Shown: piece by piece, positions 10,905 to 32,173 of the stretch | How the letters are laid out: each line of letters opens with the position of its first letter | How positions within the stretch are numbered: position 1 is the stretch's first letter | From: Nitrosopumilus sp. | GTDB lineage: Archaea; Thermoproteota; Nitrososphaeria; Nitrososphaerales; Nitrosopumilaceae | Direction of reading: 5' to 3' | Length of the DNA: 64,000 bases | NCBI GenBank assembly: GCA_963667665.2 | Contig: OY763927.2 | Span: 544,001 to 608,000, forward strand | The notes under the pieces: model-generated | Told to the model about the DNA's origin: nothing | The model's input: the letters and a program-made list of their open reading frames with translations, nothing else | The model's database searches: none | Program-made: the position numbers and the translations under genes

Positions 10905-11014
10905 CATCAGGGATGGGATTCGAACCCATGAAACCGAGGCACTCGATTAGAGATTTTCAATCTCTCGCTATACCGCTATATCGCTATATCGCTATACCGC
11001 TAAGCGACCCTGAC
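10905..11014 (-). tRNA. non-canonical tRNA-like gene: Ser-type body (long variable arm, G73), GAA anticodon, 24-nt repeat expansion in the D arm
   Basis: Acceptor GTCAGGG/CCCTGAT+G; anticodon arm AGAGA-TTGAAAA-TCTCT; variable arm AATCGAG-TGC-CTCGGTT; T arm ATGGG-TTCGAAT-CCCAT. Confidence 0.8.
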
Positions 11015-11119
11015 GAGTTTATTATTATTCATCATCATTAAAAGTATAACATTAAACACGAACCAGTCAAATTTTTATCAAAATATTTTATTTCTGAAAA
11101 ATTCTAAAACAAAATTATA

Positions 11120-11458
11120 ATGTTTGATTTAATACAAGATACAATCTCTGCCCTGTTGTGGCCTGAAAAGTCATGTTTTACTACTGGAGAGTTTTTGGGT
11201 TTTAGCGCAGGCATCATATTGGTGTGTATTGCATTTGTGTTTGGAATGGTACTACTGCCAGAATCAATCCTTGTCGTAATTGTTGTCATTGTATCATCTG
11301 TAATTGGTCTTGGTACCTTTATGGCCAAATTCTCCAGTCATTATCTAAAGGCAATATCGCTTCGTGGGTTTGGTTTTTTGATCTTTGTTGTATTGGCGTA
11401 TTTTATGGTGCAGATAGAGTCATTTCCTACAGAAGATACAATTGTAAACTGGCTGTAA
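11120..11458 (+). CDS. small membrane protein
   Basis: Three hydrophobic helices. Confidence 0.55.
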   Translation: MFDLIQDTISALLWPEKSCFTTGEFLGFSAGIILVCIAFVFGMVLLPESILVVIVVIVSSVIGLGTFMAKFSSHYLKAISLRGFGFLIFVVLAYFMVQIESFPTEDTIVNWL

Positions 11459-11475
11459 TTTTTACATCACCGTTA

Positions 11476-13563
11476 TTATAAATTCATACTGTCTATTTTT
11501 AATTCTGGCATTTCATATAATGTATAATTCTGGTTTAATTCTACTTTTGGATTCAAAAACTTCATAAAATTTTCATGATGTGCCGCTCTTAGTATGGAGC
11601 TAGGCATTACAAAACCTATGTGCCCTTTATCTTTTAGATATAGATCTACTACTATGCAAAAAAATAGAGTTGCTAACTCCATATGGGTATAAAGATATTT
11701 TTTTGATTTATCAAAAAGACCATACTTTTGACTACCCTCTTTTAGGAATTTTTTATAAGTTTCATTTTTCATTTTTTTAATTGTAATCCATGGTGGATTT
11801 CCCATAATGATATCTACTTTATTTTTTGATAACGCCATAGGTTTTGTAGCATTTTTAATGATGTATGGCCATATGGAATCTCTATCTTCATCAATTAACT
11901 TGATGAGTAATTGATAATTTTCAATCCATAGTTTCCTTGTTGGTTCTGATGAAATATTTTTTACTGCATTTCTAAAACCTTTTAAAAGATTTTCTCTATT
12001 CATTGCCAAAATTCTATCTCTAGATTCCTTTGGAACATTTTCATTTCGGAATTTTGCATCTTGGTAAGATTGAGCATGATCATGCATTTTTTTAATAACG
12101 TCATCTGTATTTGCTGTTTTACTAATTGTATCAGTTGGAATTTGGAAAAAATGTTTTTCTGTTGCTTGAATATCAAAAACATTTTTGCCACTAAATAAAC
12201 TAGATTTTTCAGATGGTAATTTAACAGAGTCACAAAGATATACGGGAATTTCTATGGGGTGTTTTTTATGATAGGGTAATTTTCCCAAAGCCAATAAATA
12301 ATTTGTTTTTGCAATAATTACTGCTAAAGGGTGTATGTCGAATCCTTTCACCGTTGAAAGTACATGAGTTAAGAGATCATTATCATCAGGAAATTCAGAT
12401 CTTAGTCTGTCAATTTTATATTTTATTGCTGAAAATAGGAATGTTCCAGAACCGCAAGAAGGATCTAAAACACTCTGTTTTGGATTATTTTTTAATAATT
12501 CATCAATACTCATTTCTGCTAGCCAATCCGGTGTGTAAAACTCCCCTAATTCTTGACGATATTCTGGATCAACCAACTCCTGATAAAGTTCTTTTAATAC
12601 ATCCTCGTTAATTTTTTCTAAATCATAAACCTCTACAATCTGATTTAATAATTTGAAAAGCATTGGATTGACCTTTTTATCGAAATGAGGATATGTAATC
12701 CATGTGAAAAAATCTTCTTCAACAAAATTATGTATTCCCCAACCATGAAAACTATGACCATGTAAAATAATTGGCATGTCTTTTTCTTGGAAAACTTTTC
12801 CTCCTGTTAGACGTACATGTACCATCAATTTTACTAATGTTGATAGGTAGGTATGCCTAATGAAAAGATCTAATTCTTCTATGGAATCCCCGTAAACTAT
12901 TTCTAAATATTTTGACCAATTTTGAAATTTTGTTTTAAAGAATTCAGTATCCTCAATTAATTTATGTAATGTCCATAATTCATCTTTGAATGTATTGTAT
13001 GTAGCACTCTTTAATCCAAATCTTTTTTTTATATCGTCAGATGTTGGAACAATATGTCGTTGAAGAAATAGATACGAATCAAACCAATTATAGATTTGTT
13101 GAGCATCATTTGTTTTATTCAGATTTAAAGAATCAGTTTCACGAACACCTATGACTTTAATTCGTTTTCCTGTTTCAGTATGAGAGAAAATAGGTTTGTA
13201 GGCCTTGAAGAGTATGCCGTCGTTTGCTATTCCTATGAAATCAGTTCCGGCATATTTTTCATGATAAGTTTGAAAATATTTTAGTAACTCCTCTTCTGCA
13301 ACTTTAATTGCAGTCGATAAATTTTTTTTAAATTCAAAAATCACATTTCCAAAAACTGCATCTATTCTTCCTCGTTTTTTCATATACACAGTTTTTACTC
13401 CATATTCCCATTCTATTTCAGCAGGATCAACTTTGAAAATATCATAGAGAAAAATTGCTGCAAAATATGTGGCTTTACTATTTTCTGATTCTTTTTCTTT
13501 AACTACTCTGCGATATTTTGATAAAACCTGTTCAATGATTTTAACAGGATTATGTGACAACAA
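11476..13563 (-). CDS. type IIG-like restriction-modification fusion (nuclease + N6-adenine methyltransferase), probably C-terminally truncated
   Basis: RID...FEFK nuclease motif; GEFYTP, DPSCGSGTF, NPPW; ends soon after the MTase with no specificity domain. Confidence 0.8.
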   Translation of the reverse strand: MLSHNPVKIIEQVLSKYRRVVKEKESENSKATYFAAIFLYDIFKVDPAEIEWEYGVKTVYMKKRGRIDAVFGNVIFEFKKNLSTAIKVAEEELLKYFQTYHEKYAGTDFIGIANDGILFKAYKPIFSHTETGKRIKVIGVRETDSLNLNKTNDAQQIYNWFDSYLFLQRHIVPTSDDIKKRFGLKSATYNTFKDELWTLHKLIEDTEFFKTKFQNWSKYLEIVYGDSIEELDLFIRHTYLSTLVKLMVHVRLTGGKVFQEKDMPIILHGHSFHGWGIHNFVEEDFFTWITYPHFDKKVNPMLFKLLNQIVEVYDLEKINEDVLKELYQELVDPEYRQELGEFYTPDWLAEMSIDELLKNNPKQSVLDPSCGSGTFLFSAIKYKIDRLRSEFPDDNDLLTHVLSTVKGFDIHPLAVIIAKTNYLLALGKLPYHKKHPIEIPVYLCDSVKLPSEKSSLFSGKNVFDIQATEKHFFQIPTDTISKTANTDDVIKKMHDHAQSYQDAKFRNENVPKESRDRILAMNRENLLKGFRNAVKNISSEPTRKLWIENYQLLIKLIDEDRDSIWPYIIKNATKPMALSKNKVDIIMGNPPWITIKKMKNETYKKFLKEGSQKYGLFDKSKKYLYTHMELATLFFCIVVDLYLKDKGHIGFVMPSSILRAAHHENFMKFLNPKVELNQNYTLYEMPELKIDSMNL

Positions 13564-13760
13564 GTAATGAATTGTATCCTTTAAGATAAATCAATGTACT
13601 TACTATATCACAATTTTATTAAAAACTGTTTTAGAATAATCCTATCATACATAAACACCCTAACGTAACGATTAACCAACCGAATGTAACACCAGTTTGA
13701 AATTGGAGAAATTAGTGAAATGCACCTAAGATGTAACAGTGTAAAAATGTTGTCTTAATT

Positions 13761-13806
13761 GATTTTAACGTGCACGACTAATGCACGTTAAGATTTTAAC
13801 GTGCAC
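13761..13806. promoter_or_regulatory. three copies of TTAACGTGCA (direct, inverted, direct), operator-like
   Basis: 13765-13774, inverted 13782-13791, 13796-13805; just upstream of GAGGTG and a TTG start. Confidence 0.55.
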
Positions 13807-13819
13807 AATGAGGTGGTTA

Positions 13820-15065: not shown

Positions 15066-15136
15066 GGGCCTGTAGCATGAGGGTCATACACCTAAGTAAG
15101 AACTAGGAGATTTGGGTTCAACTCCCAACAGGTCCA
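15066..15136 (+). tRNA. degenerate tRNA-like element (nominal anticodon AAG, short variable loop)
   Basis: Acceptor GGGCCTG/CAGGTCC+A; T arm TTGGG-TTCAACT-CCCAA; anticodon arm CCTAA-GTAAGAA-CTAGG with one mismatch; D stem GCAT/ATAC with one mismatch. Confidence 0.65.
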
Positions 15137-15310
15137 CACTACACATAATGTACATTTAGGTAAAAATTATTCAAGGAAATTTCTGAAATACCTAGCAACA
15201 GATTCTGAAACTTTGACTAATATGTCATTAGATTTTGGTTTGTCTTTCTCCAAATATCTGAAATTTCTTGATTTTATTTCCCCTTTAATACAAATCATTC
15301 TTGTATAGTT

Positions 15311-15934
15311 GTGCAAGTATTAGCAATAACTAGCAGATCCCTATTTAACACAAAGTGGATAAACCTCTCAATTAAGACGTTTTCCCCGCGCCAGTTCCTA
15401 TGCGGAGTAATTGGAGGGGTCAGTATTATTACGGCAATAATTGGAAAGATACATCCAATATTTGCAATCTTTGGAATTTTGATAATACTGTTTGGATTTA
15501 CACCATTTGGATTTTTGCCCACTGAAAAAAAGATTATCGCATTTGTGTCATTTCATACAAAAAAAAATGCCACTGCAAAAAAATCAAAAAAGCAGTACTC
15601 TACACTTGTAGGAATTGGGAAATTGAGTGTCGAGGAATCTTCTGATGAGAAACCACCACAGACAAAGAAAATACAAACAGTATATGTCGATGACTTGGAT
15701 GTGCCATATGTGCTAAATCTATCAACTACTGCCAAATCCCAGTTCATTCCAGTTACGATATTTTTCTCAGAAGGTGTAGATGAGATTCCCATTGCAAGCA
15801 CCACAACTGGCAGACATGGCAAGGTATCATGTACAGTTCTTCTCGAACAGTACGGGCAGAGACGTGTGAGGGTAACTGGTGATGATGACGGTACAACATA
15901 CTATGACGATACGGTAGTGTTTGAACGAAGATGA
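15311..15934 (+). CDS. PrgI/VirB3-like T4SS membrane protein
   Basis: FSPRQFL followed by two TM helices; next to a VirB6-like gene. Confidence 0.55.
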   Translation: MQVLAITSRSLFNTKWINLSIKTFSPRQFLCGVIGGVSIITAIIGKIHPIFAIFGILIILFGFTPFGFLPTEKKIIAFVSFHTKKNATAKKSKKQYSTLVGIGKLSVEESSDEKPPQTKKIQTVYVDDLDVPYVLNLSTTAKSQFIPVTIFFSEGVDEIPIASTTTGRHGKVSCTVLLEQYGQRRVRVTGDDDGTTYYDDTVVFERR

Positions 15935-17613
15935 ACAAACCCATCCAAACAAATCTCATTCCATTGCTTTACAAAAAACTAAACTCGCCATTGCCTGCAA
16001 TAATTCCCGGAGCTGATGCGGGAATATTAATTATAACTACAATTCTTTACACGCTCGCATATGTAGGTGTAATGTTTGTTTTGATTAGCGAGATTGCCGT
16101 GGGCTTTGTGGGAATCATAACTGATGTACCAAGCTTTGAGTTTGATATTGTAAACGGGGTGGAGACTGGCAACTTTTCATATCTGCTGCATTCAATCTTT
16201 GCCGAGATTGCACTTTACTTTTTTATTTTTGTGTTCTTGATTTTTGCAATCTTACTATTACTAAAGCAGGCCGAACTTGTCACATCTGATACGCTAAAAA
16301 ACATGATAAAGTCGGCAGGTATTGGAATTATAATAATTATGATATTTCCATATCTCTGGGATTCAATCTCTGATATCTCTGAAATGTCTGCCCTCTGGGT
16401 ACTAAACCCACTGTATTCATTTGATGAAGATGCTCCATGTATATCATCCAAGGATCCGCGAGCTGCGCAGCTTGCAGATTGGCAGAGAACCATGAAACAA
16501 AATTCCGTACCTCCGCTTGTACAATGGGATCCTAAAGAGGAATGTCTGCCGTCATTGAGACCCGACTATCTGTTCTCAAAGGCAATCTATGGGGCGACAA
16601 TTGATCTGGACTTTGAAGATGAAGCAGAGGGTGACTGGTGGAACATAATTGACAAGCTCACTGCATATACTACGGTAATAGCTCAGGGAATATTTGGGAT
16701 AATATTTGAGGGAGTAACTAGGGCTACAATACTGTTCTTTTTGGCATCAATGTCAGCACTTGTCGGGTCTGTGAGACATCTGCTCACTGATGTTATCGCA
16801 ATAGGGCTTCCAATATTACTGGTGTTGAGATGTCTGCCATTTGGTGGAATAGAAAAGATGGCAAACACCTTGCTATCGGTGTTTGTTCCTTTATTGTTTG
16901 TGCCATTTTTTAGCGCACTAATAATTACTGCAGGCAGTGCAAGTCTTCTTGACCAAGAAATTGAGACAGTCACCATATCCAGTGGAGATACAGTCATAAA
17001 CATTGCATCTGATAGATATCTGTTTTGGATGTATAGTATAGCTACTTTATCTCTGGCAGTAATGACTCCTGTAATGTTTGTCCCGATGCTGGGTTCGGTA
17101 TCATCCATGATGGGAAAGATGGTAATGACATCAACTATGACTGGTGTGATGGGCGCTACCAGCGCTGCACAGGGAATGATGCAGGGAGGTGCTGCCGCAT
17201 TCTCTGGACTTGCTGCTGGAGGAGCAGCTGGTGGAATTGGAAAGATGGGTGCCCTCAAATCAATGTTTACCAATCCCCGTTCCATGGGTGCAGCAATTGG
17301 AGGAATTGGAAGCGGTGGAATGGCTGCATCCAGGGGTGTGCTTGCAGGTAACTTGTCAGGTGCAGGCAAGATAATACCTGGTGCTGGCGATGCCAAGGGA
17401 TTGATTGGAGCTAGCCCAGCTGCTGGCGGTGCGGATAGTACTGCATATGCAAAGGGTAAGACACAGGCTGAGAGCATTGTATCAGACGGCAATACAAATC
17501 CAGAAGAAGATGAACACCACTTTAGCAATACTCCTATTAGCAGCACTAAGGCTACAAAGGGCAGTAATGGTGCCATGCCAAAAAATAATGATAGGAAATC
17601 TTCAACAGTATGA
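15931..17613 (+). CDS. VirB6/TrbL-like polytopic T4SS membrane protein
   Basis: Many TM segments and a Gly/Ala-rich C-terminal tail; VirB4 nearby. Confidence 0.7.
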   Translation: MNKPIQTNLIPLLYKKLNSPLPAIIPGADAGILIITTILYTLAYVGVMFVLISEIAVGFVGIITDVPSFEFDIVNGVETGNFSYLLHSIFAEIALYFFIFVFLIFAILLLLKQAELVTSDTLKNMIKSAGIGIIIIMIFPYLWDSISDISEMSALWVLNPLYSFDEDAPCISSKDPRAAQLADWQRTMKQNSVPPLVQWDPKEECLPSLRPDYLFSKAIYGATIDLDFEDEAEGDWWNIIDKLTAYTTVIAQGIFGIIFEGVTRATILFFLASMSALVGSVRHLLTDVIAIGLPILLVLRCLPFGGIEKMANTLLSVFVPLLFVPFFSALIITAGSASLLDQEIETVTISSGDTVINIASDRYLFWMYSIATLSLAVMTPVMFVPMLGSVSSMMGKMVMTSTMTGVMGATSAAQGMMQGGAAAFSGLAAGGAAGGIGKMGALKSMFTNPRSMGAAIGGIGSGGMAASRGVLAGNLSGAGKIIPGAGDAKGLIGASPAAGGADSTAYAKGKTQAESIVSDGNTNPEEDEHHFSNTPISSTKATKGSNGAMPKNNDRKSSTV

Positions 17614-18068
17614 CAGAATCTTTTACGCCTAAAACGATTAAATCCTTAAAAGCTCAGAAACCATATTATGTCATGTTAGCAAGACAGGAAAACGAAAAAC
17701 CAATAATTGAGATTCCCTTAAAGAAACACAAAACAATGGAGATCACGAATCTCAAACTGGCAGTATTTGATTCTAAAAATATAAAGTTGCGCATTCCAGT
17801 ACAGAATATTCGCTCTATTGTACCGCTAAAAAAAGACAAGATACGAATCCAGTATTACGAGCAGGTTCAAAACAATGATCCCATAGTGACATTCAAGCGA
17901 AAATATGTGGACTATGATCTGGAAAAGCCTGAACTTTCTGCCTTACAGTTGTGCCATAAAATAAAAAGTGGGCATGAACGACTAAACACATGGAGCAAAA
18001 ATGACAAGGGACTATTGTTACTACAGCCACAGATTTTGAAGACGCTGCAGATGTATGGAACTCTGTGA
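17610..18068 (+). CDS. hypothetical protein (3' end probably chimeric)
   Basis: Coupled to the VirB6-like gene; runs into the matrixin fragment. Confidence 0.45.
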   Translation: MTESFTPKTIKSLKAQKPYYVMLARQENEKPIIEIPLKKHKTMEITNLKLAVFDSKNIKLRIPVQNIRSIVPLKKDKIRIQYYEQVQNNDPIVTFKRKYVDYDLEKPELSALQLCHKIKSGHERLNTWSKNDKGLLLLQPQILKTLQMYGTL

Positions 18069-18427
18069 GTAATTCATGGTGGGACTTTACAAGAGATGAT
18101 TCAAGTAATGATGTAGAAATTGGCGCATGGTTTATGGGTTGGCATATATCAACATTAGCTGAAACCACATGGTATGACCATAATGGTTCTATGTTATGGG
18201 CTTTTGTAGATTTTAACAATGCTAAAGATTTTAGAGATGTTAATGTCTCTCAAGGGTGGTGGTCTTTTGACTATGAAACTGTTGCCATCCATGAAATCGG
18301 ACATGTAGCTGGTATCCATGATCATACAACAACAACAAGTTCTCCAATGAAAGCCTCAATTCCATCCAATAATGTAGATAGAACATTGAACAGTCATGAT
18401 AAAACAACAATTAGGGGTATGTATTAA
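18065..18427 (+). pseudogene. C-terminal fragment of a matrixin-like zinc metalloprotease
   Basis: HEIGHVAGIHDH and SPM Met-turn; no N-terminal part or signal peptide. Confidence 0.7.
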
Positions 18428-18428
18428 G

Positions 18429-18998
18429 ATGAATAAAAAACTATTACTACCTCTTTTGGTACTTGTTGTAATTCCTGTTCTTATATTTAGTCAACCAAAT
18501 GCTGATACAATAGGGAAACAATTTGCAATTGACAACCCAGGTATATCTATTGGTGTTAGTACTTCAGAAGAGGCTTTAACAGAAGAGCAAGAGATAAACA
18601 GAGCATCTCTTATTATTGAAGGAACTATCCTAGAAGCCAAACCATTCTGGAAGATTATCCATAATGATAAACCACCTAGAATTTACACCGAATTTACTGT
18701 TAAAGTAGACGATGTCATCAAAGGTGATATAAAATCTCAAACTATCACATTTGTAATTGGTGGTGGTGATTTAGATGGAATAATTTCTAGAACAGAGTCA
18801 GTAGATCTCACTGTGGGAGAACAAGTAATCTTATTACTTGGAAAAGATATCCATAGTATATTTGGGGACACATATAACCCAATATCTATCTCAAAATCTA
18901 TTTACAAAATTGAAGATGGTCAAGCAATAAACAAACTAGATGATAGAACAGGCAACAAAGACGACGTAAAAGAGAGAATATCTGATCTATTAAGATAG
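18429..18998 (+). CDS. secreted or membrane-anchored protein downstream of the protease
   Basis: MNKKLLLPLLVLVV signal; A.LII.G.I...TEF.V.V..V.KG beta-rich pattern. Confidence 0.6.
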   Translation: MNKKLLLPLLVLVVIPVLIFSQPNADTIGKQFAIDNPGISIGVSTSEEALTEEQEINRASLIIEGTILEAKPFWKIIHNDKPPRIYTEFTVKVDDVIKGDIKSQTITFVIGGGDLDGIISRTESVDLTVGEQVILLLGKDIHSIFGDTYNPISISKSIYKIEDGQAINKLDDRTGNKDDVKERISDLLR

Positions 18999-19069
18999 AT
19001 ATCCTTATTTTTTTTATGAATATTAATCAAAGAATTATAACATCATATAATAACATCTAATCATGCGAA

Positions 19070-19315
19070 TTGACTGCTGCAGGAATTGCAATCATGTTAA
19101 TATCTGGATGTTTTGCAATAGCTGATATATTCATACCTGGTTCAGATGATGCTCCAGACGAAAAGCCATTGTTTGGCGATTTTCTAATTGGTGCAATAGA
19201 TGAGATAATATACTATCTGAGATGGGCCGTATATCTGGCAATTATTGGTGGTGGAATGATGATAGGCATTTCACTGAGGCTGACCAATACAACACACATG
19301 ATGAAAACAAAGTAA
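19070..19315 (+). CDS. small two-TM protein, possible conjugative pilin-like
   Basis: Two hydrophobic segments; T4SS neighbourhood. Confidence 0.35.
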   Translation: MTAAGIAIMLISGCFAIADIFIPGSDDAPDEKPLFGDFLIGAIDEIIYYLRWAVYLAIIGGGMMIGISLRLTNTTHMMKTK

Positions 19316-19317
19316 TC

Positions 19318-19707
19318 ATGTTGTCCTCTTTTTTCTATACATGTATCACTGCCGTATCTTCTACATTTGCAGGAATATTTGTAAATGTGTTTTTCAATGA
19401 TTTTGGAATCATACCTGCCATAATATTTTATGCTTGTGCGTTCTTTACAGACTATCACTCTACAGTCAGGGTAAGAAATTTTACAAAACATGAGACAAAC
19501 CCGCTGTTTTGTATATTCTCAAAAAGACTCTCCTCTGGAATGTCATTTGGAATAATATTTGCAATAGGCATTGGAATAAACATCATATCATACGCTGTAC
19601 TGGCAGACCCAATAATATCATACGTTCTTGGCATGTGTCATCTGTGTGCAGCAGCAAACAACTATCACATATCTAAAAAAATCATACTGACGGATAATGT
19701 ATCATGA
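19318..19707 (+). CDS. membrane protein with E.NP motif (DUF5658-like)
   Basis: D..ST......E.NPL followed by TM helices. Confidence 0.45.
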   Translation: MLSSFFYTCITAVSSTFAGIFVNVFFNDFGIIPAIIFYACAFFTDYHSTVRVRNFTKHETNPLFCIFSKRLSSGMSFGIIFAIGIGINIISYAVLADPIISYVLGMCHLCAAANNYHISKKIILTDNVS

Positions 19708-20222
19708 TCCTAATGAATATCATAAACGTGAATGCAAAGGCTAAAATATCCGGGTTTGACACTGATGCAATTATTGATGGCATTACTAATGCAGAATACA
19801 GACCAAACGGATTTCCAGCTATTTGTATTGGCAGTGACTCAGGAATCACTATCTCGTTGTTTGATTCAGGCAAGATAAACTCAAAGCGTGCAAAGTCCAC
19901 TGATTCTGCCATACTGGCAATCAATAATTTTGTCAAAACATTAAAAAAACTTGGAATGAAAATATCCATTCTCTCTAAGCCTTCCATATATCTAATTGTA
20001 ACAAATGTATTCTATGAAAAAAGAATAAACATCAAATCCCTCAAGAGTTTACCGGAATTCAAAAAGGAGATAAAACGATTCAGCTCAATCCAACTTGTAT
20101 TTCCTAACAATGTCAATGTTCTGGCATACGAGAATTCATTGAGGGTTTCAGGGAATGACATATCACATATGATGCAGGTGGTAAACAGCCTGAAAAAACA
20201 CACAATTCCTGCGGTGAAATAA
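19704..20222 (+). CDS. tbp: divergent TATA-box binding protein (TBP)-like
   Basis: First repeat NIINVNA...EY.P..FPA.....LF.SGK....AKS...AI...L...G; second repeat degenerate; 172 aa. Confidence 0.72.
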   Translation: MILMNIINVNAKAKISGFDTDAIIDGITNAEYRPNGFPAICIGSDSGITISLFDSGKINSKRAKSTDSAILAINNFVKTLKKLGMKISILSKPSIYLIVTNVFYEKRINIKSLKSLPEFKKEIKRFSSIQLVFPNNVNVLAYENSLRVSGNDISHMMQVVNSLKKHTIPAVK

Positions 20223-20228
20223 TAATGG

Positions 20229-20627: not shown

Positions 20628-20862
20628 TAATGATAACTTTGATGTTTTTACACCGTTTAATCTCAGAATAATTGTGAAATTTATGGTTTATAGTGAAAAA
20701 TCCCTATCTCATACCAGAATTGTTTCTTATCCTGACTGTCAATTTTACATTGTACTTTCTGTGTGTCCTGTATAATTTTTCATATTCAGAATTGAATACT
20801 AGGAGCAAATGTCCCGAGTTTGGAACAGTGTATTAAAATCTTAAAAAGAAGAACAGCATAAG

Positions 20863-21090: not shown

Positions 21091-21255
21091 TAGTCAGTAA
21101 AGATTTTGGCTATAAAGAGAACATTGGAAAAAGACAATGGTTTTTCTGAGATCAGTAGATAGGAAAGTGTTATCCAACATAATCTAGAAAATAATTTCTT
21201 TAATTAGAAGGATATTCCCAACCACAATCATAACAGCAAAATATGATCCTGTTGC

Positions 21256-23900: not shown

Positions 23901-24914
23901 ATGAGAAAGATTGTATTCATATTTGTGTTATTATTAATTGGTATTGCTCCATTAATCATTTCATCATACTCTGATTATGTCTCCCCAAAAAAACAGCTAG
24001 AATCTGGAGTATTGCCTGAGGATATACAATGTAGAGAGAATAAAGTACTTGTGATCAGAGATAATGGAAATCCAGCTTGTGTTAAAGAGGAAACTGCACA
24101 AAAAACAGGGTGGGATATCATTGCAACAGAGTTTGCACAAAAAATAGTTCCATCAAACCAAGAAGTTCAGATTAATGATAAAGTAGAAAATAATTTGATA
24201 GAACATGAATCTACAGTAGATAATGAGACAAACAATAATAATGAACAAGAATTCATAGTATTAGATTTTGGCTCTGATGTAGAGTATGTAGATGACGGTA
24301 GAGAACAATATAGAGCTAAATTACAGAAATCCCCTGCACCAGGGGATATGTTTGGCTATATTGATGAAGCTCTGGAAAAACATCCAGTAGATGCTGCTGG
24401 CCTGTTTAGAACACCAGCAATATCACATGAAAGATACTCTGTTAATCCAGGAGTTGGATTTTATCCACAAGACTGGATGCCATCACATGTTCCAGATGGA
24501 TATAGATTGCTGTATATTGATAATAGGCATTATGAAGAATTTGGTACTTATTGGATGAGAATATATTTTGTACCAAACACGTTTGAGTTAACGAAAGACA
24601 TCACAAACCTTGATTTAGATATGTCTCAAGGATTCAAAATATTTGTTGAGAAAAAAACACACCCATTAGATGAAATTGAAGATGAAATTGAGAATTATCG
24701 AGAACGTATAGAATCTGATTATGGATATGTAGGTAGATTCTTAGACTTGGAACGTGATGGAAAAACAGTTTGGGCATCAGAGACACAATCTGATTACAAT
24801 CACTATCATGCAACACTTAACTATAACTTTGATGAATATACCATAGTAGGAGTATCATCAAATTATCATACTCTAGAGGAATTACAACCAATATTTGATA
24901 GTATAATGAAATGA
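23901..24914 (+). CDS. secreted protein with thaumarchaeal P.KQ...C...PACV domain
   Basis: Signal peptide; SPKKQ...IQC...LVIR..GNPACV; WMP.HVPDG shared with 35233-36222. Confidence 0.65.
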   Translation: MRKIVFIFVLLLIGIAPLIISSYSDYVSPKKQLESGVLPEDIQCRENKVLVIRDNGNPACVKEETAQKTGWDIIATEFAQKIVPSNQEVQINDKVENNLIEHESTVDNETNNNNEQEFIVLDFGSDVEYVDDGREQYRAKLQKSPAPGDMFGYIDEALEKHPVDAAGLFRTPAISHERYSVNPGVGFYPQDWMPSHVPDGYRLLYIDNRHYEEFGTYWMRIYFVPNTFELTKDITNLDLDMSQGFKIFVEKKTHPLDEIEDEIENYRERIESDYGYVGRFLDLERDGKTVWASETQSDYNHYHATLNYNFDEYTIVGVSSNYHTLEELQPIFDSIMK

Positions 24915-24922
24915 AATACATC

Positions 24923-25804
24923 CCCAACTTATCCTAAAACTCTCCAGTACATCATAATTGATGCCAAATACACAAACCCAAGATAATTATCACAGTTCTT
25001 CTCATATCTGATTCTTGTTCTATGAAATCCATTCTTCAACCATGCAAAGAATCTCTCAACAACAAACCTTGTCTTGTTGTAATTGTTCTGCATGTTATTT
25101 GGTACGATGAATTTGGAATTATTCCTGTATGGAATGCAGCATCTGATAGAATGATTTCTCAGATAATTCCTGATGTATTTTGCATCATAGCCCTTGTCTG
25201 CATACACTGATACGATCTCTTCTATCATAGAATCATCTACAAAATCTGAAATTGATTCCATGACATCGATAAATTTCGTACTATCATGTTGATTTGCAGG
25301 ACTGCATACAATTGATATTGGCAATCCATTACTATCTACGGCAACATGTATTTTTGTACCTAGAATCTTCTTGAAACCATCATATCCAGTTACGTTGCCC
25401 CTTTTTTATTGGAAATTGATGATGAATCAACTGATATCTTTTGCAGATTAATCTTGTTTTGTTTGTAAGCTGATTTCATTATTCCAGAAAGAATCTTTTT
25501 CCATACTCCTTTTTGCTGCCAGTCTTGTAATCGTAGATGTGTAGTTGATTTGGAACCATACTTTTCTGGTAATTCTTCCCATCTGCATCCAACAGTTAGA
25601 ACAAATAGAATTCCATTAATTGTTGTTCTATCATCACATCTTGGTCTGCCTGTTCTTGCAGGTTTTGGTAAATGTGGTATAATTGATTTCCACTGTTTGT
25701 CTGTTAGTTCTTTATGAATCATAGAAATGATTTGATAGATGTTATTGTTAGATCTATACTATCATCAAATGTTTACAAAATGATCTGTTTTAGGATGAGT
25801 TGGG
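24923..25804 (-). mobile_element. IS5-family insertion sequence with split transposase (25390-25722 and 24929 to ~25400)
   Basis: 18-bp TIRs CCCAACTTATCCTAAAAC (24923-24940) and GTTTTAGGATGAGTTGGG (25787-25804), 17/18 match; ELTD.QW, GRPR, DSS, ADKGYD, R..VER.F.WLK; A6G4 run at the frame change. Confidence 0.9.
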
Positions 25805-26573
25805 TATCATTTTTGATATCTGATATCAGTTTTGGAATCAAGGCACCACCTCCTGCACAAACTACTGGGATTCCGGGATAGTCAATTACGACTTTTTCCA
25901 GAGAATCTGAAATGTTTGCGGCAAGGATTTTTCTTGCCTCATCGAGTTGCGGGGTGTTCTTTGAGAACAGTTTTTTATCCACATAACCTGATTTAGAAGA
26001 CGTAATGGATCTTGTAATGTCGCCAACACCATGCAAAAGTGTTTGGCCATATGCTATTGTATCGTGAGTTACAGCCATTATCTCAGTTGTACCCTGTCCT
26101 ATATGACACACTATTCCATCTTCTAACCCTTCATGATCAAGGGTTGCCTTTGCCTGAAACATCACACCAAAGAACTTTGGTGCAAATCTATCTTGAACTA
26201 CATTCTTGATTTTTTGGACGTAATCTTTTGCATTGTATGGAATGCCTGCAACGATTACACATTCTGAATAGTTTTGTGGACCGCCAGGCAATGCATCTTT
26301 TTGCAATACTATGACCTTCTCTAGTGCATGTTTTACCAACTCCATATAATCAGTAATGGATGTTGGTGCTCCCCTATACACTGGAGTCTTTAACACCATT
26401 GATTTTACTGACTCTTGTTTTGCTGCTTGCTCCCCGACAAGAACAGTTTTTTTTGATTCCAAGTCCATGCTTTTGCCTCTTGCAATTATTGATGGGAATG
26501 TAAATGTGCCATGTATGGTGGCAACTTTTACCAAACCCGTTCCAATGTCAAGACCGATGCAATTTTGTTTCAT
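25805..26573 (-). pseudogene. ParM/MreB-like actin-fold ATPase truncated by the IS5
   Basis: GLDIGTG.VK, IGQGTTE, AGGGA motifs; the last ORF codons come from the IS end. Confidence 0.75.
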
Positions 26574-26608: not shown

Positions 26609-26861
26609 TTTACTATCGTGTAATTACACGATAGTAAATCCCAACTATCGTGTAATTTGACGATACCCAAAATCCCTCCAAAAAAGAGGTTAACAAAACG
26701 CCCTTAATACAAAAACACTACTAGTAATTAAACAAAACCCAAAAAACACCAAAAACACACTTTACAGCATAGATAAGGAAAAATCCCAAGGATTCATACC
26801 AAATTCCAAAAACGCAATTTTTTCACAAAAACCAACCAAACTATCGCGTAATTACACGATA
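26609..26861. promoter_or_regulatory. three palindromic TATCGTGTAATTACACGATA-type sites
   Basis: Perfect 30-bp palindrome 26609-26638; imperfect copies 26644-26665 and 26840-26861. Confidence 0.7.
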
Positions 26862-26893
26862 TCAAAACCAACAAAATTTCTACAAAAATAAAA

Positions 26894-26963
26894 TAGAGGG
26901 CTATGATGAGACAGGCGTTGATCTGACACCAATATGATGACAGGCTTCTGTCTGAGCCCTCTA
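26894..26963 (+). ncRNA. dual-guide C/D-box sRNA
   Basis: C ATGATGA 26903-09, D' CTGA 26923-26, C' ATGATGA 26934-40, D CTGA 26952-55; terminal stem TAGAGGGCT/AGCCCTCTA; T-run downstream. Confidence 0.85.
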
Positions 26964-27020
26964 CAAATTTTTTGTATCAATGCTGTTAAAAATGTTAGCA
27001 CAGTCAAAGGTTTTGTCAAA

Positions 27021-27080
27021 CTGAGATATTATCTCCAACCCTGCAAAGAAATCGACTCAGCGAGTAGGGATTAAGAGATT
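27021..27080 (+). ncRNA. pseudoknot motif copy A (minimal)
   Basis: CTGAG/CTCAG crossed with CCCTGC/GTAGGG, plus ATCTC/GAGAT. Confidence 0.55.
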
Positions 27081-27347
27081 AAAAGAATTTTCTCAAATAC
27101 AAATACATCAAAGAGAACAACCAGTCCGCACAGCAGTATCATTTGGTTTATTGTAAAAAGAATAAATCAACAGGAATAAATTCCCGACATTGAATGATGA
27201 GGAACTATTCACACCAGAAATTATTTTTTTAACCCTAGCGCAAGCTATACTCTGGTGACGACATCAACTATCTACGGACAGACCAGTTACAATCTGCATT
27301 AGTTCAGCATTTGAGAGAAGACCACCATTTAGGTGAGGTAAAATACT

Positions 27348-28620: not shown

Positions 28621-28666
28621 AAGCAAGAGAATTCCAACAGGAATAATGTCTAAGACAAAAACTGAC

Positions 28667-28748
28667 TTTGACTGAGTCTATCGCTCCAACTCCGTTATTC
28701 TGGTATAATAATACCAGCTGACTCAGCAGAACGGATGTGTGAGTTGAT
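28667..28748 (+). ncRNA. pseudoknot motif copy B
   Basis: CTGAGTC/GACTCAG crossed with TCCGTT/AACGGA; inner hairpin CTGGTAT/ATACCAG. Confidence 0.7.
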
Positions 28749-28766
28749 CCTTAAAGGAGGAAAAAA

Positions 28767-29459
28767 ATGGCAAAACAATTTATCAAAAGAACACTCATGG
28801 CAATAGTATTTACCATGTTGATTGTCATTGTAGCATCCCTTACATATCAGTATGTGGTTCCGATGGTACTTTCGATGGATACATCAAATGTGTCAGACGG
28901 AATAAACATTGGAAAAGGAATGTTGTACAATGCAAAAGAGCAGGTTATGAATGTCATGGGACAAAATGAAAAGAACTCTCAGGGAACACAAACTGATACT
29001 GCAAGTCAAGATGTAGAATTGTGGTACCAGAACAAAACAGTTGAAAAATCTCAAGGTACACAGACTAGTACAGCAAGTCAAGATGCAATACCATATGGTA
29101 CAGCACTTGGAGGCAAAGTCACCAAAATCGTAGACGGTGATACTCTAGATATTGATGGTACAAGAATCAGACTTGCGCTAGTCAATACACCAGAAAGAGA
29201 AGAAACAGGATATGCAGAAGCTACAGAATTTACAAGATTACACTGTCCAGTTGGTAGTACAGCAATGTATGATATGGATGATGGACAGAGAGATGGTTCT
29301 TACGGCAGAGTCATCGCAAAGGTGTGGTGCTTTGGATATCCAGTGGAGACACCAGACACATCATTGAATGCAATGCTGGTTAATTCAGGACATGCAGAAA
29401 TATTTCACAGATTCTGTAATACCAGTGAGTTTAGCAGTGATGAATGGGCAAACTGTTAG
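28767..29459 (+). CDS. membrane-anchored thermonuclease (SNase) family protein
   Basis: VTKIVDGDTL, IRLALVNTPE, YGRVIA, LN..LV..GHA. Confidence 0.85.
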   Translation: MAKQFIKRTLMAIVFTMLIVIVASLTYQYVVPMVLSMDTSNVSDGINIGKGMLYNAKEQVMNVMGQNEKNSQGTQTDTASQDVELWYQNKTVEKSQGTQTSTASQDAIPYGTALGGKVTKIVDGDTLDIDGTRIRLALVNTPEREETGYAEATEFTRLHCPVGSTAMYDMDDGQRDGSYGRVIAKVWCFGYPVETPDTSLNAMLVNSGHAEIFHRFCNTSEFSSDEWANC

Positions 29460-30006: not shown

Positions 30007-30035
30007 ACTGAGTTTTTCAAAAACCCACAATTTTT

Positions 30036-30115
30036 TTTGACTGAGTCTACTGACCCAAACCCATTATTTTCATCAGTATGATGAGCCGACTCAGCGGATG
30101 GGTGTGCGATTGATT
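30036..30115 (+). ncRNA. pseudoknot motif copy D
   Basis: CTGAGTC/GACTCAG crossed with ACCCAT/ATGGGT; inner hairpin TCATCA/TGATGA. Confidence 0.7.
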
Positions 30116-30171
30116 GGAAAATCAAAGATTTTCAAGTTCCTAGAATCATTATACAGAAATATCCCAAAGGG

Positions 30172-30834: not shown

Positions 30835-30836
30835 GA

Positions 30837-31268
30837 ATGTCTACACAAAATACAATTCCTGCATTATACCAGACCGATGGCATTCCATTTGATGAGAAAC
30901 TAATTCATCAGATATGGATTATTCCATCAATCAACTTTGTTTGGTGTGTGGCAGAACTAGACATTAAGACAAAAGAGGCATTCGGATATGCAAATCTGAA
31001 TGATGATGACATGGCAGAATGGGGCTATATTGATATCGTAGATATTGAGAAAAATGGAGCCAAACTAATATCCTCGCAAGCCATGTCGTTTAAGGAAGTA
31101 CTAGATATAGTACGACCCAAAAACGGATGTCCAGAATGTGGTTCTGATCAGTACAAATTTCAGAGCATCAAAAGAGGAGATCCTACTCTAAGTGATGACA
31201 CCTTTGAGCTGTGGATTTGCAGAAACTGCAACTATCAGCCATTCACAAATATCAGAGGACTGGTCTAA
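30837..31268 (+). CDS. DUF2958-like protein with C-terminal Zn ribbon
   Basis: W.VAELD.....FGY......EWGYI.I; CPEC...CRNC. Confidence 0.6.
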   Translation: MSTQNTIPALYQTDGIPFDEKLIHQIWIIPSINFVWCVAELDIKTKEAFGYANLNDDDMAEWGYIDIVDIEKNGAKLISSQAMSFKEVLDIVRPKNGCPECGSDQYKFQSIKRGDPTLSDDTFELWICRNCNYQPFTNIRGLV

Positions 31269-31269
31269 A

Positions 31270-31506
31270 ATGACATCCATTTCAGTCCTAACCCTGGACA
31301 GTGACGAGATCAAAGGACATCTAGAATGCAATGAAAGGAGAGTACATCAAATCATGGGAATGGCAAAACAAGGAAAATTTGCAGATATCATCATGGATTC
31401 TTTTTGGGAAACCATTGATGTATGTAATGATATCCTTGACTGTGAGGATGAATCTGGAAAAACATTCTATGAGAAACTAGGCCGAGAGTTGGAGGATGCA
31501 AAATAA
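31270..31506 (+). CDS. hypothetical acidic protein
   Basis: ATG immediately after the upstream stop. Confidence 0.45.
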   Translation: MTSISVLTLDSDEIKGHLECNERRVHQIMGMAKQGKFADIIMDSFWETIDVCNDILDCEDESGKTFYEKLGRELEDAK

Positions 31507-31933
31507 TGTCCAAATGGAGCATTACCCTCTCACGAGAAGCTGGAATATACACAACAGAGGAGATACCATGTGTGTAGGAACAGATCTTCTAGTACATGTA
31601 TTTGAGACGTTTGCGGCATACCATACACCACAGAAAACATTCAGACGTCTTTACTGTGAATCAGGACAAGCTGCAAAAAAGGCATACAGATACGCAAACA
31701 ACGACACAGAACAAAACCTTGATGAGATAATTCCAAAATGTAGTGACTGCCAAAAACCCAGAATGAAGACAAGTACCATAGTTCTAGTCTTTGAGGAACT
31801 CACAAAAATCAAAGAACCAGAACTGCTCAAAGAGATGTATGTCAATATTGGTGGTCCGTCAAGAAATGCATACCTAGTATGCAACAAGAAAACACAACGT
31901 ATAATTCAGAAACTAGAATTGTACAAAAAGTGA
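31496..31933 (+). CDS. hypothetical protein
   Basis: GGAGG upstream; co-oriented. Confidence 0.45.
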   Translation: MQNNVQMEHYPLTRSWNIHNRGDTMCVGTDLLVHVFETFAAYHTPQKTFRRLYCESGQAAKKAYRYANNDTEQNLDEIIPKCSDCQKPRMKTSTIVLVFEELTKIKEPELLKEMYVNIGGPSRNAYLVCNKKTQRIIQKLELYKK

Positions 31934-31969
31934 AAGAACAATCACTCTAAAAAAACAACTATTAGGGAA

Positions 31970-32173
31970 TTCCCCTGATGATTCAGTGATATCTCAAATG
32001 ATCCTCATACGAGGTGTTAGATATCATTGATGCTCAATTACTATTCTTGAAGAATTGTGATTGGGTTGGCTTTATCGCTAGTCGGTATTGCCGAAACCAT
32101 GAAATGTCATATCATATGACTATACAGTACTGTACAGCATATCGTACTTTGCTATTCAATCATGGTCGGGGAA
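31970..32173 (+). ncRNA. hammerhead-ribozyme-like structured RNA with multi-hairpin insertions
   Basis: TTCCC-CTGATGA...GGC..GCC-GAAA-CCATGA...TCATGG-TC-GGGGA. Confidence 0.5.

What the first reader, a model, noticed from the sequence alone, without database searches (positions are those of the whole stretch)
10905..32173. Synthesis: a conjugative element carrying an RNA-level and basal-factor toolkit for reprogramming host gene expression
Seen together in one island: a C/D guide RNA, four pseudoknot elements, a hammerhead-like RNA and two aberrant tRNAs, plus TBP- and TFB-like genes (TFB upstream at 2996), interleaved with T4SS and partition genes. Inference: the element may carry its own promoter recognition, transcript processing and translation-modulating RNAs. 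I do not know of such a combination being described for an archaeal ICE. The linkage depends on the assembly being correct.
Basis: inference. Interest (0 to 1): 0.75.

Follow-up and report, generated by a model that had tools for sequence, protein, structure and literature searches.

The report
Conjugative island carrying unusual regulatory RNAs

Summary
It is a 91.6-kb island flanked by a 13-bp direct repeat. attR lies at window 58668-58680. attL and a 556-aa integrase lie 32 kb upstream of the window.

Confirmed:
- a VirB4-like ATPase in a membrane-protein operon
- an actin-like partition gene with palindromic repeats
- a divergent TFB
- a full two-repeat TBP paralogue inside the transfer operon
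- a textbook dual-guide C/D box sRNA (26895-26962)
- two tRNA-like genes
- three "pseudoknot elements"

The pseudoknot elements are copies of a roughly 100-nt leader: a three-way junction plus a pseudoknot. Covariation supports it in 68 distinct copies from Nitrosopumilaceae genomes, and it has no Rfam match.

No hammerhead was found.

TFB on thaumarchaeal conjugative elements is already published. TBP was not mentioned in the three papers I term-searched, and one two-term search found no paper pairing Nitrosopumilus with box sRNAs.

The C/D guides differ between elements and match no rRNA or tRNA better than shuffled guides.

"Reprogramming the host" is not shown. Self-regulation of the element is the more economical reading.

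The parts
2996..3865 (+). Divergent TFB/TFIIB homologue (289 aa): weak Zn-ribbon plus two cyclin repeats
   Evidence: PF00382 4.9e-7 and PF08271 0.004. Aligns to the P. woesei TFB core 1ais_B/1d3u_B over residues 81-278, E 2e-6. The host has 7 canonical two-repeat TFB genes elsewhere.
6950..7398 (+). HicB-HicA toxin-antitoxin pair (cargo or stabilisation)
   Evidence: PF15919 6e-10 and PF07927 1.6e-16.
10904..11015 (-). tRNA-like gene 1. Class-II body (long variable arm), anticodon loop UUGAAAA (GAA). Here it carries a 24-nt tandem-repeat insertion after the D arm.
   Evidence: Rfam tRNA 25.8 bits, below gathering. ARAGORN with introns. The intact 83-nt homologue in the G206 element scores 44.8 bits in Rfam. 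Anticodon-stem changes are compensatory across the 3 copies.
11476..13563 (-). Type IIG-like restriction-modification methylase (cargo between the two tRNA-like genes)
   Evidence: PF07669 2e-14 and PF02384 2e-13.
15066..15137 (+). tRNA-like gene 2. Class-I body, anticodon AAG, weak D arm. A partial 5' duplicate lies at 15000-15036.
   Evidence: ARAGORN. Rfam 39.2 bits. The homologue in G014 scores 53.2 bits, has anticodon GAG and shows compensatory acceptor changes.
15311..21149 (+). Transfer-apparatus membrane operon: a 2-TM protein, a 560-aa protein with about 9 TM segments (VirB6-like by topology only), a Zn-metallopeptidase-like protein, and several small TM or pilin-like proteins
   Evidence: Hydropathy count. 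PF00413 for 18065-18427. Weak UpsA pilin hit for 20229-20627. Conserved in G218, G110 and G206.
19704..20222 (+). TBP paralogue (172 aa), full two-repeat saddle fold, embedded in the transfer operon
   Evidence: PF00352 1.7e-9. AF2 pLDDT 96.9. Foldseek top hit is archaeal TBP 1mp9, TM 0.85, and ranks 1-44 as listed are all TBPs. It belongs to a subfamily of 12 representatives at E < 1e-10. It is present in exactly the 4 of 201 family genomes that hold the close VirB4.
21256..23145 (+). VirB4/TrbE-like conjugation ATPase (629 aa, no TM segment)
   Evidence: PF19044 6e-12 and PF12846 7e-8. NCBIfam VirB4-like families down to 2e-40, all below their curated cut-offs.
24907..25806 (-). IS5-family insertion sequence (secondary insertion)
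   Evidence: PF13340 and PF01609. Four further copies at 99-100% identity in the same genome.
25773..26573 (-). Actin-like (ParM-type) partition ATPase
   Evidence: PF00022 6e-6 (25.5 bits, below the 27-bit cut-off) and PF17989 0.005. 73% identical in G206 and 67% in G218.
26612..26869 (.). Three palindromic repeats (ACTATCGYGTAATTACACGATA), a candidate centromere-like site upstream of the actin-like gene
   Evidence: the repeat finder family D8. Repeats at the same places but of different sequence in G218.
26895..26962 (+). Dual-guide C/D box sRNA. Guides GACAGGCGTTGAT (D') and CAGGCTTCTGT (D).
   Evidence: Sequence. Strict pattern gives 1 hit in the genome. Sub-threshold Rfam hits to four C/D families. 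A syntenic copy with other guides lies in G206. The family occurs in 8 of 401 family genomes, with 0 hits for the reversed-pattern control.
27009..27105 (+). Leader motif copy 1 (variant without hairpin P3)
   Evidence: CM R1 26.9 bits, E 0.14. Conserved in G206 and G218 at the syntenic place.
28660..28775 (+). Leader motif copy 2. It ends in AAAGGAGG plus the ATG of the nuclease gene.
   Evidence: CM R1 78.9 bits. Sequence.
30029..30133 (+). Leader motif copy 3, upstream of ORF 30172-30834
   Evidence: CM R1 92.4 bits.
28767..29459 (+). Membrane-anchored staphylococcal-nuclease-like protein
   Evidence: PF00565 1.8e-5. phrog_452 endonuclease 1.3e-14.
58668..58680 (+). attR: the right copy of the 13-bp direct repeat TGCCCTAATTAAC. 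The left copy lies at genome C1:511044-511056, outside the window.
   Evidence: Junction alignment with empty sites of G244, G016 and G009. Only two exact copies in the genome.

Best explanation
The finding lies inside one 91.6-kb integrated element of a Nitrosopumilaceae archaeon.

SHOWN
- A tyrosine integrase sits at attL, and 13-bp att repeats flank the island.
- There is a VirB4-like ATPase in an operon of membrane and pilin-like proteins, and an actin-like partition gene with repeats.
- There is a divergent TFB, and a genuine but divergent two-repeat TBP inside the transfer operon.
- There is a dual-guide C/D box sRNA, and two tRNA-like genes flanking a restriction-modification cargo module.
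- Three copies of a structured leader of about 100 nt stand in front of unrelated genes downstream of the partition locus.

INFERRED
- These parts serve the element's own expression and maintenance. They are not a device for reprogramming the host.
- The TFB and TBP paralogues give element promoters their own initiation factors, as proposed in print for the TFB.
- The leader is a cis-acting RNA in the 5' UTR. It consists of helices P4-P2, hairpins P3 and P5, and a pseudoknot between the P5 loop and a 5' CUGAG. It sets translation or processing of the downstream 'establishment' genes, probably through a protein or ligand that reads its invariant CCAAAC/GUGUGAGA core.
- The C/D sRNA is loaded by the host fibrillarin machinery and directs 2'-O-methylation of a target that is not rRNA or tRNA and that changes from element to element.
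- The tRNA-like genes are element-borne tRNAs or their remains. One of them is damaged in this genome.
For: ELEMENT AND BORDERS
- In G016, G244 and G009 the orthologues of genome 510428-511021 and 602725-603126 are adjacent.
- The junctions share TGCCCTAATTAAC, which has only two exact copies in the genome.
- The integrase 511104-512774 hits PF00589 at 1.6e-9.
- Gene order is colinear from the integrase to window 30006 with G206 and largely shared with G218 and G110.

TBP
- establish the fold and family.
- It is found in 4 of 201 family genomes. These are the same four that hold the >=54%-identical VirB4, whereas 50 of 201 hold any VirB4-like hit.

TFB
-.
- Published for thaumarchaeal ICEs (PMC6563490 and PMC5797428, passages read).

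LEADER
- The pattern scan gave 41 matches in 10 records, eight of them titled Nitrosopumilus, Nitrosarchaeum or Nitrososphaerota.
- On the MAFFT alignment of 37 sequences, 95.4% of cells pair against 84.3% in shuffles (0/500). Fifteen of 26 pairs show changes on both sides. Slid controls give 32-46%.
- On 68 distinct CM-aligned copies, 95.6% pair against 78.5%, and 21 of 26 pairs change on both sides.
- The pseudoknot was not part of the model. It is 94.9% paired, with three forms: CUGAG/CUCAG, CCGAG/CUCGG and CC-UG/CA-GG.
- Frequent G-U pairs fit only this strand.
- Downstream genes are unrelated to one another.
- All 3 hits in the own genome lie in the island.
- All 6 of 151 sampled genomes with the motif also have a VirB4-like ATPase. 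In G124 and G160 the two lie 12-20 kb apart.

C/D sRNA
-.
- ParM is adjacent in 4 further loci.
- Fibrillarin is present.

tRNAs
-.

EXPRESSION
- RNA-library contigs of 3 runs from 2 studies cover parts of the element, including leader 2 plus the nuclease gene. These are contigs only, so they are weak evidence.
Against: - No VirD4-type coupling ATPase was seen. The PF12696 search of the genome found only the VirB4-like gene inside the island. I did not scan every small ORF, and I made no relaxase-specific search.
- The TFB-like gene has no tblastn match in the three related elements. These carry other, equally divergent TFBs at similar places.
- The TBP sits among membrane-protein genes. This fits a role in DNA handling during transfer as well as one in transcription.
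- No target was found for any of the 18 guides. Only 1 of 18 beat all 30 shuffles on rRNA plus tRNA. Only self-antisense perfect matches occurred in 330 kb of four elements.
- G218 lacks the C/D sRNA at the syntenic place.
- The tRNA-like anticodons are not conserved in family 2 (AAG, GAG, GAA).
- No transcript ends are known. The contig breaks at the leader occur in a DNA run as well.
- Window 30-58.7 kb has no synteny with G206. It holds a D5-type primase and an IS, so the island may be composite.
Confidence: 0.7

Rival explanations
1. The element uses its TBP/TFB pair, guide RNA, tRNAs and structured RNAs as a toolkit to redirect host promoter choice, RNA modification and decoding.
For: - All of these part types are present on one element.
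- The guides are not aimed at the element itself, so a host or foreign RNA target is possible.
- tRNA-like gene 1 combines a class-II body and discriminator G with a Phe anticodon. If charged, it could mis-decode.
Against: - No host target was found for any guide: genome-wide, guide 1 has no site with <= 1 mismatch, and rRNA/tRNA complementarity equals that of shuffles.
- The host keeps 3 canonical TBP and 7 canonical TFB genes.
- tRNA-like 1 is disrupted here.
- The leaders sit only in front of the element's own genes.
Confidence: 0.12
2. The leader motif works as folded single-stranded DNA, not as RNA. It would be a single-strand promoter or priming site on the transferred strand. This resembles the ssDNA promoters recalled from leading regions of bacterial conjugative plasmids.
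For: - There are repeated copies in one orientation, each in front of small unrelated genes next to the partition and transfer modules.
- Covariation and G-T pairs are equally compatible with ssDNA of this strand.
- An oligo-T run precedes each copy.
Against: - I made no relaxase-specific search, and none turned up among the ORFs scanned. It is unknown whether these elements transfer single strands.
- Several copies run directly into a Shine-Dalgarno-like AGGAGG and a start codon about 95 nt after the motif start, as expected of a 5' UTR.
- RNA-library contigs span leader 2 plus its gene.
Confidence: 0.12
3. The TBP paralogue is a DNA-bending accessory of the transfer or partition machinery and not a transcription factor.
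For: - It is embedded between membrane and pilin-like genes directly upstream of VirB4 in all four elements.
- Its second repeat has lost the canonical FPG.../SGK motifs.
- It is 17 kb away from the TFB-like gene.
Against: - The saddle fold is intact.
- The four aromatic stirrup positions are kept as F, F, F, Y in alignment A3. Which positions these are in known TBPs is recalled, not tested.
Confidence: 0.25
4. The small RNAs are decaying passengers: att-site remnants and a hitch-hiking sRNA cassette with no present function.
For: - tRNA-like 1 carries a repeat expansion.
- tRNA-like 2 has a partial duplicate, and halves of it are fused to other sequence in G013 and G206.
- The C/D cassette is a clean indel relative to G218.
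- One RNA-run contig diverges exactly at its 5' edge.
Against: - Boxes, spacing and terminal stem of the C/D sRNA are perfect in 12 listed instances while the guides differ. This argues for selection.
- Stem changes in both tRNA families are compensatory.
- The homologues pass Rfam's tRNA threshold.
Confidence: 0.2

Closest known systems
Thaumarchaeal integrative-conjugative elements (Krupovic et al. 2019, PMC6563490; Abby et al. 2018, PMC5797428; passages read)
   Same: - Integrase plus short att repeats.
- Size is of the same order as the published median of 64 kb.
- VirB4-like ATPase, multi-TM VirB6-type protein and pilin-like genes.
- A divergent TFIIB homologue.
- Heavy cargo (surface proteins, R-M, TA).
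   Different: - No VirD4/TraG partner was found.
- TFIIB is not followed by a recognisable ParB.
- Partition is by an actin-like gene.
- A TBP paralogue, C/D sRNA, tRNA-like genes and the leader motif are not mentioned in the passages and term searches I made of these papers ('tbp' and 'tata' occur 0 times).
Halobacterium NRC-1 replicons pNRC100/pNRC200, which carry multiple TBP and TFB genes (PMC1447603, passages read)
   Same: - Basal factors TBP and TFB are encoded on an accessory replicon, and alternative TBP-TFB pairing has been proposed.
   Different: - Those are megaplasmids or minichromosomes of a haloarchaeon, with near-canonical TBPs.
- Here there is a single, strongly divergent TBP, at most E 1e-9 to canonical TBPs, inside a conjugation operon of an integrated element.
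Archaeal C/D box sRNAs (Rfam sR1, sR17, sR44 and relatives)
   Same: - Terminal stem, C/D and C'/D' boxes, two guide spacers of about 12 nt, total about 55-68 nt.
- Host fibrillarin is present.
   Different: - Scores are below every Rfam family threshold (17.7-23.3 bits).
- It lies on a mobile element next to a partition locus.
- Guides differ between elements and have no rRNA or tRNA complement better than chance.
ParMRC-type actin-like plasmid partition systems (recalled)
   Same: - An actin-fold ATPase with an upstream array of short repeats that change together with the element.
   Different: - No adaptor (ParR-like) gene was identified; an IS lies where one might be.
- The Pfam score is below the curated cut-off.
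Pseudoknotted junction riboswitches and small self-cleaving ribozymes (general class, recalled)
   Same: - About 100 nt, with a three-way junction and a hairpin-loop to 5'-tail pseudoknot.
- Invariant unpaired or core nucleotides.
- 5'-UTR position, with many copies on mobile DNA.
   Different: - No Rfam family matches at E <= 5.
- Neither a ligand nor cleavage is known.
- It precedes functionally unrelated genes, which is unusual for a metabolite riboswitch.

Membership tests
Integrative-conjugative element (archaeal) | Site-specific integrase and flanking att direct repeats, with an empty site in relatives | tested here: met
Integrative-conjugative element (archaeal) | VirB4/TrbE-type ATPase | tested here: met
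   NCBIfam hits lie below the curated cut-offs, but the Pfam AAA_10 and TraG P-loop hits lie above theirs.
Integrative-conjugative element (archaeal) | VirD4/TraG-type coupling ATPase | tested here: not met
   The PF12696 search of the whole genome found only the VirB4-like gene inside the island. None appeared among the ORFs scanned with Pfam. Not every ORF was scanned.
Integrative-conjugative element (archaeal) | VirB6-like polytopic membrane protein | tested here: inconclusive
   The 560-aa protein has about 9 hydrophobic segments and is conserved in related elements. There was no family hit in Pfam or NCBIfam.
TATA-binding protein family (PF00352) | Pfam score above the gathering threshold | tested here: met
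   37.8 bits against a cut-off of 22.9, first repeat only.
TATA-binding protein family (PF00352) | Two-repeat saddle fold | tested here: met
   AF2 pLDDT 96.9. TM 0.85 to 1mp9. The alignment used for folding contained 6 canonical TBPs among its 23 rows.
TATA-binding protein family (PF00352) | TATA-box binding and TFB recruitment | not testable with these tools
   Only the conservation of four aromatic positions was seen.
TFB/TFIIB | Zn-ribbon plus two cyclin repeats | tested here: met
   PF00382 is above its cut-off. The Zn-ribbon is below its cut-off. The core aligns over both repeats to 1ais_B.
C/D box sRNA | C (RUGAUGA) and D (CUGA) boxes, internal C' and D' boxes, terminal stem, two spacers of about 12 nt | tested here: met
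C/D box sRNA | Reaches the gathering score of an Rfam C/D family | tested here: not met
   17.7-23.3 bits against thresholds of 36-46.
C/D box sRNA | Guide complementary to an rRNA or tRNA site | tested here: not met
C/D box sRNA | Host encodes fibrillarin | tested here: met
   PF01269, 300 bits. Nop5 and L7Ae were not searched.
tRNA (RF00005) | Rfam gathering score and cloverleaf | tested here: met
   Met for 15066-15137 (39.2 bits). Not met for 10904-11015 (25.8 bits), whose G206 homologue reaches 44.8 bits.
tRNA (RF00005) | Body class fits the anticodon (Leu with a long variable arm, Phe without one) | tested here: not met
   Gene 2 has a Leu anticodon on a class-I body. Gene 1 has a Phe anticodon on a class-II body. 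The rule itself is recalled.
Hammerhead ribozyme | Match to any Rfam hammerhead model | tested here: not met
   None at E <= 5 in window 1-34000.
ParMRC partition | Actin-like ATPase, centromere repeats and an adaptor gene | tested here: inconclusive
   The ATPase is weak. Repeats are present. No adaptor was identified.

The most novel reading that the evidence does not exclude
A lineage of Nitrosopumilaceae conjugative elements runs its own RNA-based control layer.
- It has a new class of pseudoknotted three-way-junction leader (riboswitch, ribozyme or protein-operated switch) that gates each 'establishment' gene.
- It has element-borne C/D box guide RNAs whose fast-changing guides direct host fibrillarin to methylate non-ribosomal RNAs. 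These could be host, rival-element or the element's own messages.
- A private TBP-TFB pair sets promoter choice.

If so, archaeal mobile elements would use RNA-guided 2'-O-methylation and a new structured RNA as instruments of conflict or self-regulation.
Probability: 0.25. Interest if true: 0.85.

Novelty: new variant of a known kind. Interest (0 to 1): 0.64.

Why it matters
Conjugative elements of ammonia-oxidising archaea are known only from genome comparison, and nothing is known about how they control their genes. This element offers three testable handles.

1. A structured RNA leader that is not in Rfam. It has strong covariation, including in its pseudoknot, and is confined to these elements.
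2. C/D box guide RNAs on a mobile element. Their boxes are perfect but their guides are variable and orphan. This asks whether RNA-guided methylation is used outside ribosome biogenesis.
3. A divergent TBP that travels with one VirB4 lineage. This would extend the published idea that the elements' TFIIB changes promoter specificity.

Each can be tested with standard methods in cultured Nitrosopumilus relatives or in vitro.

Tried and rejected
- Rfam at gathering score over the whole window gave only the tRNA at 15066. At E <= 5 over 1-34000 there was no hammerhead, riboswitch or pseudoknot family.
- att repeats were first sought between the integrase side and the purD side. Only a 17-nt match with one mismatch (E 0.21) came up, and I dropped it once the empty sites showed the true right end 26 kb further on.
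- The purD-like gene 32600-33952 was first taken as host flank. It lies inside the island and occurs in only 8 of 41 genus genomes at E <= 1e-40.
- Guide targets:
  - the own 16S/23S gave only 9 WC + 1 GU + 1 mismatch for guide 2;
  - genome-wide, guide 1 has no site with <= 1 mismatch apart from its own antisense;
  - 18 guides against rRNA plus 41 tRNAs did no better than shuffles, and 1 of 18 beat all 30 shuffles;
  - 17 guides against 330 kb of four elements gave only chance-level one-mismatch hits.
- The strict C/D pattern found nothing in metagenome contigs. This does not show absence.
- The search for homologous proteins for the TBP-like protein gave only 6 proteins; the HMMER library search reached further.
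- RNA-run contigs cannot give transcript starts. The contig ends at 28648-28664 also occur in a DNA-type run and have loose ends, so I do not read them as a start site. Parts without cover are not evidence.
- I did not run complex prediction on TBP-like plus TFB-like. A pass would rest on likeness to solved TBP-TFB structures, and a miss would say nothing.
- The PADLOC library, Nop5/L7Ae, relaxase families and the second structure job were not used.
- Supplementary files of PMC6563490, which hold the per-element annotations, were closed. They may list TBP-like or RNA genes that I could not see.
- The organism label (Nitrosopumilaceae) rests on record titles of loci returned.

Full report
WHAT THE WINDOW IS

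The window is G000:C1:544001-608000 of a 1.89-Mb, two-contig genome with 34% G+C. Records that share its special motifs are titled Nitrosopumilus or Nitrosarchaeum.

BORDERS OF THE ELEMENT

A family-wide search with the VirB4-like ATPase found matches at E <= 1e-10 in 50 of 201 genomes. Only three were close: G218 (68% identity), G110 (57%) and G206 (54%). tblastn of the window's ORFs against 50-60 kb around each of these showed shared gene order from window 14601 to about 30000.

Extending the comparison leftwards showed colinearity between genome 511104-574006 and G206 1248368-1348765. It starts with a 556-aa tyrosine integrase, 57% identical and hitting PF00589 at 1.6e-9.

The two genes left of the integrase are core genes, found in 39 and 40 of 41 genus genomes. 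In G016, G244 and G009 the orthologue of 510428-511021 directly abuts the orthologue of 602725-603126. The two junctions in this genome and the empty sites share TGCCCTAATTAAC. That 13-mer has exactly two perfect copies in the genome, at 511044 and at 602668, which is window 58668.

The island is therefore 91.6 kb. No integrase lies inside the window.

G011 carries a different insert at the same site. It has another integrase and a primase like window 43407-44501. The right third of the island has no counterpart in G206. The island may therefore be composite.

PROTEIN PARTS

- The ATPase 21256-23145 hits TraG P-loop, AAA_10 and several VirB4-type NCBIfam models.
- It closes an operon that holds a 560-aa protein with about nine hydrophobic segments, several 2-TM or signal-peptide proteins and a Zn-peptidase-like protein.
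- A search of the own genome with PF12696 gave no second transfer ATPase in the island.
- The actin-like gene 25773-26573 is 67-73% identical in G218 and G206. It is preceded by three palindromes. In G218 these are replaced at the same positions by palindromes of another sequence.
- An IS5-family element with four other copies at 99-100% identity in the genome has landed beside it.
- Cargo includes a type IIG-like methylase, HicAB, an XPD-like helicase paralogue, a GINS-like protein and a purD-like gene. Upstream of the window there are giant DUF285/Ig surface proteins.

BASAL FACTORS

The TFB-like protein has one Pfam cyclin repeat above threshold and a weak Zn-ribbon. It aligns over both repeats to the P. 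woesei TFB core. The host has seven canonical TFB genes and three canonical TBP genes.

TFIIB homologues in all identified thaumarchaeal ICEs are published, with the suggestion that they alter promoter specificity (PMC6563490 and PMC5797428, passages read).

The TBP-like protein is the less expected part.
- Pfam matches only its first repeat.
- HMMER against 1.84 billion representatives finds a small full-length subfamily: 12 proteins at E < 1e-10, 162-182 aa long. Canonical TBPs appear only at 1e-9 to 1e-3.
- The AlphaFold model (pLDDT 96.9) is a complete saddle. All Foldseek ranks 1-44 as listed are TBPs, and the best hit is 1mp9 at TM 0.85.
- In alignment A3 the first repeat keeps the RPNGFPA and FDSGK motifs. 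The second is degenerate but keeps aromatic residues at the aligned positions.
- In the 201-genome sample the subfamily occurs in exactly the four genomes with the close VirB4. In each it sits between the same neighbours.

The words 'tbp' and 'tata' do not occur in the three ICE and conjugation papers I searched. TBP and TFB genes on Halobacterium accessory replicons are a precedent (PMC1447603).

C/D box sRNA

Window 26895-26962 reads as follows: stem AGAGGGC, C box, 13-nt guide, D', 7-nt loop, C', 11-nt guide, D, stem GCCCTCT. A strict pattern finds it once in the genome. Rfam gives only sub-threshold hits to four C/D families.

G206 has a copy at the syntenic place with the same stem and boxes but different guides. 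G218 lacks it through a clean indel.

A two-gap pattern finds 11 sites in 8 of 401 family genomes, and none with the reversed control. Twelve listed instances are complete dual-guide sRNAs with nine or more different guide pairs. Four further loci have the ParM homologue alongside. In G046 the copies alternate with leader motifs.

Fibrillarin is present in the host. No guide has a convincing target.

tRNA-LIKE GENES

Gene 2 (15066-15137) passes Rfam. It has a Leu anticodon (AAG) on a short-variable-arm body and a poor D arm. Its G014 homologue scores 53.2 bits, with anticodon GAG and compensatory acceptor changes. G013 and G206 keep only its 3' half, joined to another 5' block with a GAA loop.

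Gene 1 (10904-11015) fails Rfam here because an 8-nt unit of the D arm has expanded to a 24-nt insert. The G206 copy is an intact 83-nt tRNA (44.8 bits) with anticodon GAA, a long variable arm and discriminator G. Three copies show three different, fully paired anticodon stems.

The two genes flank the R-M cargo, a segment that differs between this element and G206. Their function is open.

THE "PSEUDOKNOT ELEMENTS"

Comparing the ParM-to-27348 spacer in three elements revealed conserved blocks. One of them recurs at 28667 and 30036.

A pattern built from it hit 41 places in 10 records of genome contigs. Eight were titled Nitrosopumilus, Nitrosarchaeum or Nitrososphaerota, and two were labelled bacterium or Nitrospinales.

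RNAalifold on 37 distinct copies predicts P4-P2, P3 and a 3-bp P5 that presents the loop ACUCAG. Pair counts are:
- 95.4% paired against 84.3% in shuffles (0/500);
- 15 of 26 pairs with changes on both sides;
- 32-46% in the slid controls.

A covariance model without the pseudoknot finds only the three island copies in this genome. It finds hits in 6 of 151 family genomes, all of which also have a VirB4-like ATPase. In G124 and G160 the hits lie 12-20 kb from it.

In these more distant copies the 5' CUGAG and the loop CUCAG change together to CCGAG/CUCGG or CC-UG/CA-GG. On 68 distinct copies the pseudoknot helix is 94.9% paired, and 3 of its 5 pairs change on both sides. That alignment is fitted to the nested helices, which favours them, but not to the pseudoknot.

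The genes downstream are unrelated to one another. Several copies end in AGGAGG-N7-ATG.

I read the motif as a 5'-UTR element. A role as folded ssDNA cannot be excluded.

EXPRESSION

Contigs from three RNA libraries of two studies cover parts of 14500-32300, including leader 2 with the nuclease gene. They give no ends, strand or level, and DNA carry-over is possible.

VERDICT

The element is a new variant of the known thaumarchaeal ICEs. Its novelty lies in the TBP paralogue, the element-borne C/D sRNAs with orphan variable guides and, above all, the covariation-supported leader motif. The claim that it reprograms the host is not supported by anything I could compute.

Noticed in passing
window 32600-33952: A purD-like (GARS) gene lies inside the island. 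It is the only match in this genome at E <= 1e-40, yet only 8 of 41 genus genomes have a match at that threshold. Either most relatives use a very different purD, or this is an accessory copy.
   Followed up: partly
window 23791-23838, 44489-44661, 45987-46155, 46262-46309, 48668-48715: A family of roughly 48-nt palindromic repeats (GGTTCTGGTAAATTCT...AGAATTTACCAGAACC). G002 holds many copies. They may be MITE-like or hairpin elements.
   Followed up: no
window 40000-49300: A G+C-richer segment (0.40-0.44) with a D5_N/DUF5906 primase (43407-44501), an ArsR-type regulator and a DDE transposase. G011 has a related primase with its own integrase at the same att site. It is possibly a second, nested or tandem element.
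   Followed up: partly
window 57213-57768: A long array of 15-nt tandem repeats, about 37 units at 60-80% identity. It is probably a pentapeptide-repeat coding region on the minus strand.
   Followed up: no
window 39079-39600: A stretch conserved at 80-85% DNA identity in five genomes. It includes a small ORF (39079-39294, -) that hits the same loci in G206 and G218 as the HicA-type ORF 7168-7398.
   Followed up: partly
L029 and L036 (G206, about 1336000-1361000): The G206 element holds at least five tandem units of roughly 1.9 kb. Each has a leader motif and homologues of window 27348-30006.
   Followed up: partly
window 7421-9091 and genome C1:506513-507913: The element's XPD-like helicase is a 42%-identical paralogue of a core helicase gene that lies 3 kb outside attL.
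   Followed up: no
genome C1:869394-921479 (outside the window): The same genome holds a second candidate conjugative region: a 1051-aa TraG-D_C protein at 908927, integrase-like ORFs at 873460 and 921126, and a single-repeat TFB-like 681-aa ORF at 869394.
   Followed up: no
window 29833-30000: Six tandem 21-nt repeats inside ORF 29590-30006. They encode a heptad-like coiled-coil repeat.
   Followed up: no
window 26898: One RNA-library contig (X15) matches up to 26898 and then continues with unlike sequence, exactly at the 5' edge of the C/D sRNA. This suggests population variants with another cassette at this spot.
   Followed up: no
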